Assembly (NCBI GenBank): GCA_036785375.1
Contig: JAWMAR010000007.1
Span: 124,001 to 188,000, forward strand
Length of the DNA stretch: 64,000 bases
Origin: Leucoraja ocellata
Lineage: Eukaryota
Reading direction: 5' to 3'
Shown here: positions 21,001 to 24,000 of the stretch, one piece after another
Numbering within the stretch: position 1 is the first letter of the stretch
Layout: every line of letters begins with the position of its first letter
Position numbers: made by a program

Positions 21001-24000
21001 GAAAACAAGTCTCAGAATTCAGTACAAGCCTGCAGGCTCTTCCTGCAAATCAGTTCTGACATGAACATCCATAGACAACAGAATGTAATCTTGGAGGTGA
21101 TAAACTAATATGTGACAAATAGAGAGAATATTATAGCAGAGCAACAGGCCCTTCGTCCCACAATGTCCATGCTGAACATGATGGCAAATTACACTCATCT
21201 CGCCTGCCTGCATGTAATCCATATCCATGTGCCTATTCAAAAGCCTCTATTGTGCATCTTCCTTAAACTTTACCTCTTCAGCTTAAACCCCTGTCCTCTA
21301 GTCTTTGCCAATCCCATCTTGCGTAAAACGTTGCAAATGTCTACCCTATCTATCCCTCACAATTTTAAATACATCTAACAGCTCCCTCCCTCTGCGCCCA
21401 AAGTACCTGAGCAAAAACATTCAAGATTGTCCAACGTCTCCTTGTAGCTGTGTAGAAAGGAACTGCAGATGCTGGTTTACACCGAAGATAGACACAAAAT
21501 GCTGGAGTCACTCAGTGGGACAGGCAGCATCTCTGGAGAGAAGGAATGGATGACATTTCGGGTCGTGACCCTTCTTCAGATCCAAAGGATCTGGACCTGA
21601 AACGTCTCCCATTCCTTTTCTCCAGAGATGCTGCCTGTCCCGCTGAGTTACTCCAGCATTTGTGTCTATCACTTTGTAACTAATACCCTCTGATTCAGGC
21701 AGCATTCTGGTAAGTGCCCGCTCTATAGTCTCCACAACCTTACTGTAATGGGGTGACCAAAACTGCACACATTACACCAGATGCGGCCTAATCAAAGTCC
21801 TATCAAGCTGAGATGTCAAAACTGTTTAAAAATAACAAATAGCTGTCAAAATGTGTAGGGACAGGATCTTTAGAGTTTGGATGGATGGAGAGAGGAGATA
21901 TTTCATTCAGGGTGGCGGGTACAATGAAACATAGAAATATAGGTGCAAGAGTAGGCTATTCGGCCCTTCGATCCAGCACCGCCATTCAATATGATCATGG
22001 CTGATCATCTAAAAACAGTACCTTGCTCCTGCTTTTCCCCCTTATATTGATTCAATTAGCCCCAAGAGCTATATCTAGCTCTCTCTTGAAAACATCCAGT
22101 GAATTGGCCTCCACTGCCTTTTGTGGCAGAGAATTCCACAGATTCACAACTCTCTGGTTGAAAATGTTTTTTCCTCATCAGTCCTAAATGGCCTACCCCT
22201 TATTCTTAAACTGTAACCCCTGGTTCTGGACTCCCCCAACTTCGGGAACATTTTTCCTGCATCTAGCTTGTCCAATCTTTTAAGAATTGTATATGTTTCT
22301 AAAAGCCACCCTCTCATCCTTCTAAATTACAGTCAACATAAGCCCAGTCGACCCATTCTTTCATCATATGTCAGTCCCGCCATCCCGGGAATTAACCTGG
22401 TGAACCTACGCTGCACTCCCTCAATAGCAATAATGCCCTTCTTCAAATTAGGAGACCAAAACTGCACACAATACTCCAGGTGTGGTCTCATCAGGGCCTT
22501 GTACAACTGCCGTAGGACGCCCTTGCTCCTAAACTCAAATCCTCTCGCTATGAAACGAGCTGCCGGAGCAGGTAGTTGAGAAAGATACTATAAACAACAT
22601 TTAAAAAGACACTGGGACGGGTACATGAATGGGAAAACCTGAGCCAAACGCAGGCAAATGGGGCTAGGTTAGACAGTGCATATTGGTCGGCATGGCCAAG
22701 TTGAAGCGAAGAGCTTTTCTTCTGACTCTACATGAGGCGAGGACTCTGTCAGTCTTCCTGCATTACCTTCTACAGGTGATATCTGTGCCAGAAGCCTGTC
22801 AGCAATTAGATTTCGCTGGAAGGGGTGTCCAACGCCTTCAACTTCCCAAAGAAGGTTGCGATCATCAGGATAATTGTTCAGATACTTCTGGCAGACTAAA
22901 GAAATGAAAAGAAGCCATGAAAAACTTGGAAACACAACGAGTTTAGACTGAGGAGCTTTTTATGTTTAATCAGTCACATTGTCCAAATAAAGCTCACAGG
23001 TTATTGAACTAAATAAATAGTAAAAAGACAAATGAAATTAATCACGAGGCCAGATCCCTCAATGCATCAAACTTAAAGTTCATCCAACCGTCAAAATTCA
23101 GCCGTGTCTCAATCTTGCTCGCCTCTGTATAACTTCATCCAAGTCTAGAGATATAGCTCTTAGGGCTAACGGAGTCAAATGATATGGGGAAAAAGCAGGA
23201 ACGGGGTACTGATTTTGGATGATCAGCCATGATCATATTGAATGGCGGAGCTGGTTCAAAGAGCCAAACGGCCTACTCCTGCATCTATTTTCTATGTTTC
23301 TATGTTTCTAGGAGATTTTGGGAAAGGATTTGACCTTTGGCATGCACCCAATTTCCTTCACTCGGGTGCATTCCTTTTCTATGTTTCTGTTTCTAAACCA
23401 ATACCAATATTGTGAATATCCTTGGTAAAATGGGTTGAGTAATGCAAAGATATGTTTAAGAAAGTACTGTGGTAGAGAAGCTGGCTTAACAGTGCCAGAG
23501 ACCCGGGTTCGATCCTGATTACAGGAGCTGTCTGTAGGGAGTTTGTATGTTCTCCCTGTCGCCACTTGGGTTTTCTCCGGGCGCTCAGGATTCCTTCCAC
23601 TTTCTAAAGACATACAGGTTTGTAGGTTAATTAATTTCTGTAAAATTGTCCCTAGTGTGTAGGATAGAAACATAGAAAATAGGTGTAGGAGTAGGCCATT
23701 CGGCCCTTCGAGCCTGCACCGCCATTCACTATGATCATGGCTGATCATCCAACTCAGTATCCTGTACCTGCCTTCTCTCCATACCCCCTGATCCCTTTAG
23801 CCACAAGGGCCACATCTAACTCCCTCTTAAATATAGCCAATGAACTGGCCTCAACTACCTTCTGTGACAGAGAATTCAACACTCACCACTCTCTGTGTAA
23901 AAAATGATTTTCTCATCTCGGTCCTAAAAGACTTCCCTTTTATCCTTAAACTGTGACCCCTTGTTCTGGAATAGAATAGAACTAGCATACTGGTCAGCAC

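What the first reader, a model, noticed from the sequence alone, without database searches (positions are those of the whole stretch)
21452..21670. Recurrent short palindromic PLE-derived elements with a hammerhead motif on each strand
Seen: the PLE terminal segment recurs as an inverted pair whose two arms meet at or near the CTGAAGA core. Examples: about 130-295, 13490-13785, 18515-18730, 21452-21670, 38705-38855, 50355-50550 and 61575-61760. No ORF is included. Single arms occur near 5680-5772, 7865, 15410-15605, 19105-19228, 24150-24192, 35690-35785, 37625-37720, 47140-47268 and 59290-59345. Inference: either a non-autonomous foldback family with ribozyme motifs in both polarities, or repeated 5' inversion during PLE insertion with a preferred turning point at the ribozyme. 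Several lie in FAM169A introns and would form hairpins of about 90 bp in the pre-mRNA. Most cores are mutated.
Basis: partly seen in the sequence, partly recalled or inferred. Interest (0 to 1): 0.68.

Follow-up and report, generated by a model that had tools for sequence, protein, structure and literature searches.

The report
Head-to-head Penelope retrotransposon end fragments
These short hairpin-forming repeats in a skate genome are decayed, ORF-less end pieces of Penelope-like retrotransposons inserted as back-to-back inverted pairs, which is the ordinary, already described way such elements insert.

Summary
A profile of the repeat finds 29 copies in 64 kb. Fourteen form 7 inverted pairs, all head-to-head, none tail-to-tail. 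Random placement gives 0.30 such pairs; 0 of 20,000 trials reach 7.

The unit is the 3'-terminal, pseudo-LTR segment of a Penelope-like element (PLE). At 57478-58102 it follows the end of a GIY-YIG endonuclease ORF on the same strand.

Known PLE hallmarks are present:
- two 3' ends about 33 nt apart, the "tail";
- the tail often on one arm only;
- target-site duplications around the whole pair in 4 of 7 pairs.

The arms meet at the unit's normal 5' end, which 9 of 12 unextended unpaired copies share. This is not a ribozyme-specific turning point.

The hammerhead core is intact in 2 of 20 copies, and no pair has it intact on both arms. Rfam finds no hammerhead.

Three pairs lie in FAM169A introns and would fold into long hairpins.

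Verdict: known PLE insertion architecture in a skate; low interest.

The parts
21450..21582 (-). Named locus, left arm: full unit, profile positions 4-134, with the tail. CUGAAGA, helix II and GAAA are kept, but ACGUC has become AUGUC.
21585..21670 (+). Named locus, right arm: positions about 13-99, without the tail. The CUGAAGA box is missing (12-nt gap relative to the left arm). A small palindrome lies at the junction.
21437..21449 (.). Candidate target-site duplication, left copy; the right copy is at 21669-21681. 10 of 13 positions match, p = 0.023.
130..301. Head-to-head pair. Left arm 130-189 (66-133, tail; an internal deletion read by eye), right arm 205-301 (4-100, no tail). It lies downstream of the FAM169A stop codon.
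13489..13786 (.). Head-to-head pair in a FAM169A intron. The left arm, 13489-13615, runs on for about 46 nt into PLE upstream sequence (13616-13661). The right arm is 13661-13786. Both arms carry the tail.
18515..18727 (.). Head-to-head pair in a FAM169A intron. Left arm 14-134 (tail), right arm 4-93. Decayed.
38705..38856 (.). Head-to-head pair. The short left arm covers positions 4-47 and has a non-canonical outer end. The right arm covers 20-131 (tail). The junction shares GAC. TSD 13 of 14 at 38687-38700 and 38859-38872.
50347..50550 (.). Head-to-head pair. Left arm 3-99 (no tail), right arm 24-132 (tail). Same GAC junction type as 38705. TSD 11 of 12 at 50332-50343 and 50552-50563.
61571..61768 (.). 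Head-to-head pair. Left arm 3-134 (tail), right arm 7 to about 72, with a non-canonical outer end. TSD 11 of 13 at 61555-61567 and 61769-61781.
57478..58102 (+). 5'-truncated PLE remnant. In order: C-terminal part of the GIY-YIG endonuclease ORF (one frameshift, stop near 57727-57729); pyrimidine-rich UTR; hammerhead core at 57826-57864; partial tandem repeat (57676-57864 resembles 57863-58044, 82%); second core and terminal segment 58007-58102, ending without the tail.
3378..3836 (-). Second 5'-truncated PLE end. The unit is 3378-3501 (tail). Upstream lie UTR-like sequence and an ORF end that resembles, by eye, the C-terminus of the 57478-58102 remnant. In a FAM169A intron.
15412..15605 (-). 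Two same-strand copies 28 nt apart (15536-15605, positions 4-76; 15412-15507, positions 4-101): a partial tandem.
35667..35786 (-). Single unit (positions 3-127), 32 nt upstream of the first FAM169A coding exon and on the same strand. TSD candidate 13 of 16.
47138..47267 (-). Single full unit with the tail (positions 4-133). 10-nt TSD, p = 0.013.
37622..37720 (-). Single unit without the tail (positions 4-102). One of the two copies with every scored core feature intact.
19106..19232 (-). Single full unit with the tail, in a FAM169A intron.
5668..5777 (-). Single unit, positions 17-133 (tail), in a FAM169A intron.
7863..7915 (+). Short fragment, positions 4-56.
24151..24192 (-). Short fragment, positions 4-45.
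59284..59365 (+). Fragment, positions 6-87.
50925..50984 (-). Fragment, positions 37-99. It starts within about 3 nt of the predicted hammerhead cut site.

Best explanation
The repeat is the 3'-terminal, pseudo-LTR segment of an endonuclease-bearing Penelope-like retrotransposon (PLE) of a skate. It is about 95 nt long, or about 130 nt with the optional 'tail'. The sense strand is the one that reads CUGAAGA, helix II, GAAAC, GUC.

Shown here:
- Each inverted pair consists of two such ends joined head-to-head, 5' ends in the middle and 3' ends outside.
- In 4 of 7 pairs a target-site duplication surrounds the whole pair, so the pair arose in one insertion event.

Inferred:
- The PLE endonuclease cuts both strands of the target with a stagger. 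Each free 3'-OH primes reverse transcription at one of two adjacent internal start sites on the RNA, which gives 'tail' or 'no tail'. Both cDNAs run to or near the RNA 5' end. Their ends are joined through a few bases of microhomology or a small palindrome.
- Two pairs have one arm with a non-canonical outer end (38705, 61571). They fit internal priming or fold-back of the cDNA better.

The arms meet at the hammerhead because the unit's own 5' end lies 2 nt upstream of the CUGAAGA box. I take this 5' end to be the 5' end of the PLE RNA (inferred). The ribozyme is not needed to explain the geometry.

The copies are dead on arrival and decay neutrally. Where they sit in introns, they add long hairpins to the pre-mRNA as a by-product.
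For: PLE origin and orientation.
- At 57478-58102(+) the unit follows, on the same strand, an ORF end that is 77% identical to residues 150-202 of a skate protein with RVT_1 and a GIY-YIG match below Pfam's cut-off. In a second frame it is 64% identical to residues 203-235.
- A partial tandem repeat is present there.

Geometry.
- 7 head-to-head pairs, 0 tail-to-tail; 0 of 20,000 random placements reach 7.

Single event.
- Direct repeats lie within 18 nt of both outer ends in 4 of 7 pairs (p = 0.023, 0.0005, 0 of 2000, 0.0025).
- Partner arms are more alike than arms from different pairs (0.787 against 0.747; 20 of 4320 permutations reach the observed value; all 7 residuals positive).

Tail.
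- Of 29 copies, 13 end at profile positions 127-134, 9 at 93-107 and 7 elsewhere. The two classes are about 33 nt apart.
- In 4 of 7 pairs one arm has the tail and the other does not.

Literature.
- Passages of Arkhipova 2013, PMC3846280: an inverted pLTR adjacent to the direct one; a TSD around the whole insert; a 31-bp tail on one inverted pLTR; head-to-head as the most frequent arrangement; palindromes at the junction.
- Main text of Frangieh 2024, PMC11167929: the anole PLE protein cleaves and extends both DNA strands; reverse transcription starts at two adjacent internal sites, with the tail between them; hammerhead mutants insert normally.

Junctions.
- 38705 and 50347 share the same GAC overlap. 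21450 has a small palindrome.

5' end.
- 18 of 29 copies start at profile position 3-4, including 9 of 12 unextended unpaired copies.
Against: - No full-length PLE and no RT domain joined to this segment lies in the window. The link rests on two 5'-truncated remnants.
- Pfam does not call GIY-YIG on the window's own fragment. On its relatives the match is weak (16.9-24.0 bits; only 1 of 4 is above the 22.6 cut-off).
- 3 of 7 pairs show no significant TSD (p = 0.09, 0.40, 0.46), so a single event is not shown for them.
- A partner arm is the nearest relative of its mate in only 3 of 14 comparisons. The excess identity within pairs is small.
- Two pairs have an arm that does not begin at either canonical 3' end. 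Simple two-strand priming from the known start sites does not predict this.
- Priming of both strands was shown in vitro for an anole element, not for this one.
- The TSS reading of the 5' end rests on a short recalled motif and on no expression data.
Confidence: 0.72

Rival explanations
1. Self-priming (snap-back). One cDNA reaches the RNA 5' end, folds back on a short palindrome and copies itself, so the second arm is templated by the first. Arkhipova 2013 proposed a variant of this on an antisense template.
For: - There is a palindrome at the 21450 junction, and overlaps of 5-11 nt at four others.
- In pairs 38705 and 61571 the second arm starts at the junction and stops at a non-canonical point (position 47, about 72), although it is bounded by a TSD.
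- Arkhipova 2013 reads junction palindromes as signs of self-priming (passage).
Against: - A copy of the first arm should share its outer end. In 4 of 7 pairs one arm ends with the tail and the other at the no-tail site. These are the two known independent start sites (Frangieh 2024).
- In 13489 one arm runs 46 nt further upstream than the other.
- The arms of 13489 are only 70% alike.
Confidence: 0.2
2. Two separate insertions. A second unit is targeted to the 5' end of a resident unit, because the PLE endonuclease recognises PLE sequence.
For: [quoted passage not shown]
- 3 of 7 pairs lack a detectable TSD.
- Arm identity within 13489 is no higher than between elements.
Against: - TSDs bracket the whole pair in 4 of 7 pairs.
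- No pair is tail-to-tail and only 2 neighbours are on the same strand. Self-targeting would have to be strictly oriented.
- Partner arms are more alike than non-partners.
Confidence: 0.08
3. A non-autonomous foldback (MITE-like) family that transposes as a palindromic unit and carries a ribozyme in both polarities.
For: - Seven palindromic ORF-less elements of 150-300 bp with flanking direct repeats.
- 38705 and 50347 share a junction type.
Against: - Arm extents, spacer (-6 to +45 nt) and tail status differ in every pair.
- The outer ends are asymmetric, so there are no matched terminal inverted repeats.
- Flanking repeats vary from 12 to 14 nt in pairs and 8 to 16 nt in singles.
- Single units outnumber pairs: 15 unpaired hits against 7 pairs.
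- No pair (0 of 7) has the core intact on both arms.
Confidence: 0.04
4. The hairpins or ribozymes are selected host RNA elements, for example hairpin-RNA or miRNA precursors, or intronic self-cleaving RNAs of FAM169A.
For: - Strong predicted hairpins (z = -18.1, -8.1, -5.5).
- A sub-threshold hairpin-type Rfam match at 21507-21652 (42.7 bits against a cut-off of 85).
Against: - No Rfam family reaches its cut-off.
- The core is intact in 2 of 20 copies. By eye, many of the defects look like CpG decay.
- Arms have diverged by 13-30%.
- RNAalifold finds only 3 consensus pairs across 12 copies.
- The same structures lie outside the gene.
Confidence: 0.03

Closest known systems
Inverted pseudo-LTR architecture of endonuclease-bearing Penelope-like elements (Arkhipova et al. 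2013, PMC3846280; Craig et al. 2021, PMC8557442, Fig. 2 legend)
   Same: - A head-to-head inverted 5'-truncated copy next to the direct copy.
- A TSD around the whole insert.
- A tail of about 31-40 bp on one end only.
- Overlap or a palindrome at the junction.
- A hammerhead motif inside the pLTR.
   Different: - Here most events carry no ORF at all. Both arms are only the last 95-130 nt, that is, 'solo' inverted pLTR pairs.
- They are frequent: 7 pairs beside 15 unpaired copies in 64 kb.
- The host is a skate. My searches found no paper on this. Repbase and Dfam could not be consulted.
Minimal type I hammerhead of metazoan PLEs (min-HHR; Cervera & De la Pena 2014, PMC4209133)
   Same: - CUGANGA and GAAA boxes.
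[quoted passage not shown]
- The G10.1-C11.1 pair.
- No helix III loop, with palindromic ACGU at 15.1-16.1, the dimer type.
- That paper also noted pairs of min-HHRs on opposite strands 100-700 bp apart in Schistosoma.
   Different: - Helix I is only 2 bp in the two PLE-context copies, as the paper reports for D. virilis, against 4-5 bp in most families.
- No Rfam hammerhead model matches.
- 18 of 20 copies are defective.
- Activity is untested.
Two adjacent internal RT start sites and cleavage of both strands in the anole PLE PAc (Frangieh et al. 2024, PMC11167929)
   Same: - The layout is the same: the hammerhead lies about 100-130 nt upstream of the genomic 3' end.
- There are two 3' end classes about 33 nt apart.
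- The hammerhead is not needed to explain the insertion products.
   Different: That work is biochemistry on another species' element. Here there are only genomic footprints. In PAc the ORF starts at helix II; no start codon is seen there in this unit.
L1 twin priming (Ostertag & Kazazian 2001; recalled, not read here)
   Same: The second target strand primes on the same RNA and gives a 5' inversion within one TSD. Pairs 38705 and 61571 have this geometry: an inverted 5' piece overlapping a direct 3' piece.
   Different: In the other five pairs both arms are the same 3'-terminal region and start at canonical start sites. Twin priming does not produce this.
Non-LTR retrozymes (Li, Clavereau & Pollet 2026 preprint, 10.64898/2026.07.22.740005)
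   Same: Non-autonomous, ORF-less, hammerhead-bearing sequences related to PLE pLTRs. Monomers are dispersed in the genome.
   Different: Retrozymes are defined by head-to-tail tandem arrays. Here there are no arrays, only 2 same-strand neighbours, and the recurrent form is inverted.

Membership tests
Penelope-like element (endonuclease-bearing) | Single ORF with RT followed by a C-terminal GIY-YIG endonuclease | tested here: inconclusive
   Only the last 85 or so codons of the ORF are in the window (57478-57729, one frameshift). They are 77% and 64% identical to residues 150-202 and 203-235 of skate protein P0002. P0002 has RVT_1 (69.1 bits) followed by GIY-YIG (16.9 bits, below the 22.6 cut-off). 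Pfam finds no GIY-YIG on the window fragment itself. No PLE RT lies in the window.
Penelope-like element (endonuclease-bearing) | Partial tandem copies forming pseudo-LTRs | tested here: met
   57676-57864 matches 57863-58044 at 82%. There are same-strand copies at 15412-15507 and 15536-15605.
Penelope-like element (endonuclease-bearing) | Adjacent inverted 5'-truncated copy, head-to-head | tested here: met
   7 head-to-head pairs, 0 tail-to-tail; 0 of 20,000 random placements reach 7.
Penelope-like element (endonuclease-bearing) | Optional 30-40-bp 3' extension ('tail'), often at one end only | tested here: met
   13 of 29 copies end at positions 127-134, 9 at 93-107 and 7 elsewhere. In 4 of 7 pairs one arm has the tail and the other lacks it.
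Penelope-like element (endonuclease-bearing) | Short target-site duplication of variable length around the insert | tested here: met
   4 of 7 pairs at p<0.05 (12-14 nt). 3 of 10 single units tested at p<0.05 (8-16 nt). The rest show none.
Penelope-like element (endonuclease-bearing) | Clade (Penelope/Poseidon, Neptune, and so on) by RT phylogeny | not testable with these tools
   No RT of this element is in the window, and the rest of the genome cannot be reached.
min-HHR (minimal type I hammerhead of metazoan PLEs) | Catalytic boxes CUGANGA and GAAA | tested here: met
   Present in the profile consensus. Among the 20 copies that cover the core, box 1 is intact in 10 and GAAA in 11.
min-HHR (minimal type I hammerhead of metazoan PLEs) | [quoted passage not shown] | tested here: met
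   An A follows box 1 in 19 of 20 copies. G10.1-C11.1 is kept in 12 of 20.
min-HHR (minimal type I hammerhead of metazoan PLEs) | No helix III loop; palindromic 15.2-16.2 (dimer type) | tested here: met
   The consensus reads GAAACGUC. ACGUH is kept in 6 of 20 copies.
min-HHR (minimal type I hammerhead of metazoan PLEs) | Helix I of about 4-6 bp flanking the core | tested here: not met
   Helix I has 2 consecutive pairs in both PLE-context copies (57826, 58007). 4-5 pairs occur only in 3 pair arms, where the upstream strand comes from the junction or spacer. Cervera 2014 accepts a 2-bp helix I variant in D. virilis.
min-HHR (minimal type I hammerhead of metazoan PLEs) | Self-cleavage | not testable with these tools
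   This needs an in vitro assay of dimeric constructs.
Rfam hammerhead families | Match to a curated covariance model | tested here: not met
   No match at gathering score. No hammerhead family among the 10 matches at E<=10.
Non-LTR retrozyme | Head-to-tail tandem array of hammerhead-bearing units | tested here: not met
   No arrays. There are only 2 same-strand neighbours, 28 and 142 nt apart.
MITE / foldback DNA transposon | Matched terminal inverted repeats and a TSD of fixed length; copies share one structure | tested here: not met
   The outer ends differ within 6 of 7 pairs. Junctions all differ. Flanking repeats are 12-14 nt.

The most novel reading that the evidence does not exclude
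The 5' edge of the hammerhead core may be the transcription start of this PLE.

In the two best PLE-context copies the boundary reads TCAGTC. This matches the initiator consensus (recalled: TCAKTY / YYANWYY), and its A is the first base of the short units. 16 of 18 copies keep two purines before TCTGAAGA, and 3 of the 5 unextended copies that keep AG have a G just before it.

On this reading the abundant 95- and 130-nt units, single or paired, are run-off cDNAs. They would be made when the reverse transcriptase enters at the promoter-proximal copy of its internal start site rather than the distal one. 'Solo pLTRs' would then be made directly, not by truncation.

A unit-length PLE RNA would begin with a hammerhead that lacks its helix I partner. 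Only read-through, more-than-unit transcripts could cleave.
Probability: 0.3. Interest if true: 0.45.

Novelty: new member of a known kind. Interest (0 to 1): 0.24.

Why it matters
- It shows that what looks like a palindromic ribozyme family is the standard footprint of Penelope-like retrotransposition. Repeat annotators of skate and shark genomes should merge these hairpins into PLE families rather than call new foldback elements or miRNA-like hairpins.
- The window gives genomic support, in a cartilaginous fish, for two features measured in vitro in an anole element: two start sites about 33 nt apart, and use of both target strands.
- As a side effect, FAM169A pre-mRNA acquires predicted duplexes of up to about 88 bp. 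Such duplexes are plausible substrates for RNA editing or small-RNA pathways, but nothing here shows that this happens.

Tried and rejected
- Rfam at gathering score gave 0 matches. At E<=10 it gave 10 matches, none a hammerhead. The best was a plant miRNA model on the hairpin, at half its cut-off. I read this as chance likeness to any long hairpin.
- Pfam on 68 ORFs of 110 aa or more found LTR-element and LINE domains but no PLE RT or GIY-YIG. The RT at 47860-48745, which lies between two units, looks by eye like a LINE rather than a PLE. I dropped the idea of a full PLE at 47138-50550.
- Pfam on the window's endonuclease fragment found no GIY-YIG.
- RNAalifold on 12 tailed copies gave 3 pairs and -0.72 kcal/mol, so there is no recoverable consensus structure.
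- First TSD scan, with 40-nt flanks and a harsh mismatch penalty: 2 of 7 pairs at p<0.05 and one at 0.053. It missed the 21450 repeat, which the boundary-restricted scan recovered.
- Hammerhead cleavage as the source of the 5' ends is rejected. The predicted cut lies after profile position 34. Only 2 of 29 copies start within 3 nt of it (4404, weak; 50925), against 18 at position 3-4.
- A splice acceptor as the source of the 5' end (pyrimidine tract plus CAG upstream in long copies) is disfavoured. The AG is kept in short copies.
- An assembly artefact is rejected. There are seven loci, and the arms have diverged by 13-30%.
- Literature searches for PLE hammerheads in sharks or skates found nothing relevant. 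One search returned 1 paper, in which 'shark' refers to the shape of the ribozyme. None of the 10 titles and abstracts listed (18 papers matched; only the listing was seen) concerns them.
- Not done:
  - The genome-contig collection was not scanned; it holds bacteria and archaea only.
  - Dfam and Repbase are not available, so 'already a catalogued consensus' stays unchecked.
  - Supplementary files of Cervera 2014, Craig 2021 and Frangieh 2024 were not seen. They hold the vertebrate min-HHR alignments and tail maps and may already list a chondrichthyan family.
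Full report
WHAT IS THERE

The named locus holds an inverted repeat: arms 21497-21573 and 21585-21661, 77 nt long, 87% complementary, 11 nt apart. The window has no N. blastn with the left arm found 28 matches in the 64 kb.

I aligned 12 long copies and built a profile, with positions numbered on the strand that reads CUGAAGA. The profile found 35 matches at E<1 and 29 at E<0.01. 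Five further copies were not listed: 3378-3501, 4404-4466 (weak), 50925-50984, 57826-57864 and 58007-58102.

MORE THAN CHANCE

Of the 29 copies, 14 form seven neighbouring pairs on opposite strands, with gaps of -6 to +45 nt. All seven are head-to-head, with the 5' ends in the middle. None is tail-to-tail. Two further neighbours are on the same strand. I placed 29 copies at random 20,000 times. This gave a mean of 0.30 head-to-head pairs with a gap under 60 nt and a maximum of 4. No trial reached 7.

WHAT THE UNIT IS

In 11 single copies the flanks beyond both ends of the unit do not align. The common form is therefore a short self-contained piece.

Two copies run on upstream. At 57478-58102(+), the following come in order:
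- an ORF end;
- a pyrimidine-rich stretch;
- the CUGAAGA, helix II, GAAACGUC core at 57826-57864;
- a partial tandem repeat of the ORF end, the stretch and the core (57676-57864 matches 57863-58044 at 82%);
- the rest of the unit, up to 58102.

The ORF end found four named skate and shark proteins. It is 77% identical to residues 150-202 of P0002, and in a second frame 64% identical to residues 203-235. P0002 carries RVT_1 (69.1 bits) directly followed by a GIY-YIG match. That match scores 16.9 bits, below Pfam's cut-off of 22.6. Of the four relatives, only P0003 passes it, at 24.0 bits. Pfam does not call GIY-YIG on the window's own fragment.

RT followed by GIY-YIG is the hallmark of endonuclease-bearing Penelope-like elements (PLEs). 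A second remnant, 3378-3836(-), has the same layout. No full-length PLE and no PLE RT lies in the window. The RT between two units at 47860-48745 looks by eye like a LINE.

TWO 3' ENDS: THE TAIL

Of the 29 copies, 13 end at profile positions 127-134, nine at 93-107 and seven elsewhere. The two classes lie about 33 nt apart.

The literature describes this feature:
[quoted passage not shown] - Frangieh 2024 shows that the tail is the interval between two adjacent internal start sites of reverse transcription (PMC11167929, main text read).

In the pairs here, one arm has the tail and the other ends at the no-tail site in four of seven (130, 18515, 21450, 50347). Both arms have the tail in one pair (13489). 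One arm ends at a non-canonical point in two pairs (38705 at position 47; 61571 at about position 72).

ONE INSERTION EVENT PER PAIR

I looked for direct repeats within 18 nt of both outer ends of each pair.
- Significant in four of seven pairs: 21450 (10 of 13, p = 0.023), 38705 (13 of 14, p = 0.0005), 50347 (11 of 12, 0 of 2000 nulls) and 61571 (11 of 13, p = 0.0025).
- Not significant in three: 130 (p = 0.09), 13489 (0.40) and 18515 (0.46).

Arms of one pair are 70-87% identical, with a mean of 0.787. Re-pairing left and right arms at random gives 0.747, and 20 of 4320 permutations reach the observed mean. All seven residuals are positive. The effect is small. A partner is the closest relative of its mate in only 3 of 14 comparisons. 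This is what old copies drawn from a few subfamilies would give.

WHERE THE ARMS MEET

The profile starts of the left and right arms are as follows:

| Pair | Left arm | Right arm |
|---|---|---|
| 130 | 66 (about 5 after an internal deletion seen by eye) | 4 |
| 13489 | runs 46 nt past position 1 | 4 |
| 18515 | 14 | 4 |
| 21450 | 4 | 13 |
| 38705 | 4 | 20 |
| 50347 | 3 | 24 |
| 61571 | 3 | 7 |

At least one arm of every pair reaches the 5' edge of the core. The same edge is the start of 18 of all 29 copies. It is also the start of nine of the 12 unpaired copies that do not continue into PLE sequence. The meeting point is therefore the unit's ordinary 5' end, not a turning point peculiar to inversion.

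Every junction differs in spacer and arm extent. 38705 and 50347 share a GAC overlap, and 21450 has a small palindrome. Arkhipova 2013 also reports overlaps and palindromes at such junctions.

THE HAMMERHEAD

The consensus has the features that Cervera & De la Pena 2014 list for the minimal PLE hammerhead (PMC4209133, parts 1-2 of 4 read):
- the CUGANGA and GAAA boxes;
- an unpaired base after position 9;
- the G10.1-C11.1 pair;
- no helix III loop, with a palindromic ACGU.

Against membership:
- Helix I has only 2 consecutive pairs in the two PLE-context copies. The paper reports that value for the D. virilis variant only.
- Rfam finds no hammerhead at gathering score or at E<=10.
- Of the 20 copies that cover the core, two have every scored feature intact (37622-37720, 57826-57864). 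Box 1 is intact in 10, GAAA in 11 and ACGUH in 6. By eye, many defects are of the CpG-decay type.
- No pair has box 1 intact on both arms. At the named locus the left arm keeps box 1, helix II and GAAA but has AUGUC, and the right arm lacks box 1 altogether.

The title's 'a hammerhead motif on each strand' therefore does not hold. The predicted cut, after profile position 34, is not where copies begin. Two of 29 start within 3 nt of it.

MECHANISM

Shown: head-to-head geometry, TSDs around whole pairs, two 3' end classes, and a shared 5' end.

[quoted passage not shown] I take each pair to be one event. In it both nicked target strands prime a cDNA from the terminal region of PLE RNA, both cDNAs run to or near the RNA 5' end, and the ends are joined by microhomology.

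The two pairs with a non-canonical outer end fit internal priming (as in L1 twin priming, recalled) or fold-back of the cDNA better. Self-priming is the model Arkhipova 2013 favoured. I cannot exclude it, but it does not predict one tailed and one untailed arm.

WHY THE 5' END LIES THERE (INFERENCE)

In the long copies 57826 and 58007 the boundary reads TCAGTC. The short copies begin at its A. The two bases before TCTGAAGA are purines in 16 of 18 copies. Of the 5 unextended copies that keep AG, 3 have a G just before it.

TCAGTC fits the initiator consensus as I recall it (TCAKTY / YYANWYY). An extra G at the 5' end is what a copied cap gives in L1 (recalled). The short units may therefore be run-off cDNAs that reach the transcription start, made when reverse transcription enters at the promoter-proximal copy of its start site.

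A splice acceptor is less likely because the AG is retained. No expression data were available.

HOST AND GENE

ORF 2671-3246(-) is 95% identical to the soluble lamin-associated protein of 75 kDa (FAM169A) of Amblyraja radiata. Other rays and sharks follow, and birds and mammals are far behind. The window is therefore from a skate, not from a human.

tblastn of that protein maps 12 coding segments on the minus strand, from 35635 down to 2671. The model was checked exon by exon, and the exons were not joined.
- Pairs 13489, 18515 and 21450 lie in introns.
- Pair 130 lies downstream of the stop codon.
- Pairs 38705, 50347 and 61571 lie upstream of the first coding exon.

As minus-strand RNA the intronic pairs fold as follows:
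- 21450: -146.3 kcal/mol (z = -18.1);
- 13489: -123.9 kcal/mol (z = -8.1);
- 18510-18730: -76.7 kcal/mol (z = -5.5).

RNAalifold on 12 copies finds no conserved structure.

COMPARISON AND NOVELTY

The structure is the published insertion architecture of endonuclease-bearing PLEs, in a miniature form without an ORF. Cervera 2014 had already noted min-HHRs close together on opposite strands in Schistosoma.

It is not a retrozyme in the sense of Li et al. 2026, which requires tandem arrays (preprint abstract and Results part 1). It is not a MITE either.

I found no paper on PLE hammerheads or inverted pLTR pairs in skates or sharks. I could not consult Repbase, Dfam, the rest of this genome or any supplementary file. 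The refutation criterion 'already a catalogued repeat consensus' therefore stays open.

I rate it a new member of a known kind, of low interest. The start-site and run-off reading is the only part that a specialist might find new.

Noticed in passing
35667-35786 (-): A PLE-derived unit sits 32 nt upstream of the first FAM169A coding segment (35635-35498) and on the gene's strand. It could be part of the 5' UTR or promoter region.
   Followed up: partly
8381-12576 (+) and 52501-55210 (+): Two LTR-retroelement bodies. They have gag-like ORFs that resemble each other. The first also has gag-asp_proteas, RVT_1, RT_RNaseH and rve; the second has RVT_1 and RT_RNaseH.
   Followed up: no
27829-28551 (-), 44082-44765 (-), 47860-48745 (+): RT fragments that look LINE-type. 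One carries the ALKBH8_N-like match next to RVT_1.
   Followed up: no
17869-18342, 19377-19814, 31018-31437, 60174-60695 (all +): A recurrent open frame sharing a motif of the form ...MFPMLGESRTRGHSLRIKGRSFK.E.R.NFF.QRVVNLWNS.... It is another abundant repeat of this genome, with no Pfam match.
   Followed up: no
P0001, P0003, P0004 (proteins returned): Predicted host proteins of skates and sharks carry a PLE endonuclease C-terminus fused to DUF4518 or Zn_ribbon_3CxxC domains. They are either exonised PLE ends or chimeric gene models.
   Followed up: partly
57676-58044 (+): The partial tandem repeat of the PLE remnant duplicates the ORF end, the UTR and the first 41 nt of the unit. The upstream copy therefore breaks off a few bases after the predicted hammerhead cut site.
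   Followed up: partly
about 50718-50888: A CA/TG-rich simple repeat next to the 50347 pair. It drew a spurious SCARNA7 match in Rfam.
   Followed up: no
4707-5459 (-): The large FAM169A coding exon holds an internal acidic repeat. It is 96.5% identical to the Amblyraja radiata protein over 231 residues.
   Followed up: no
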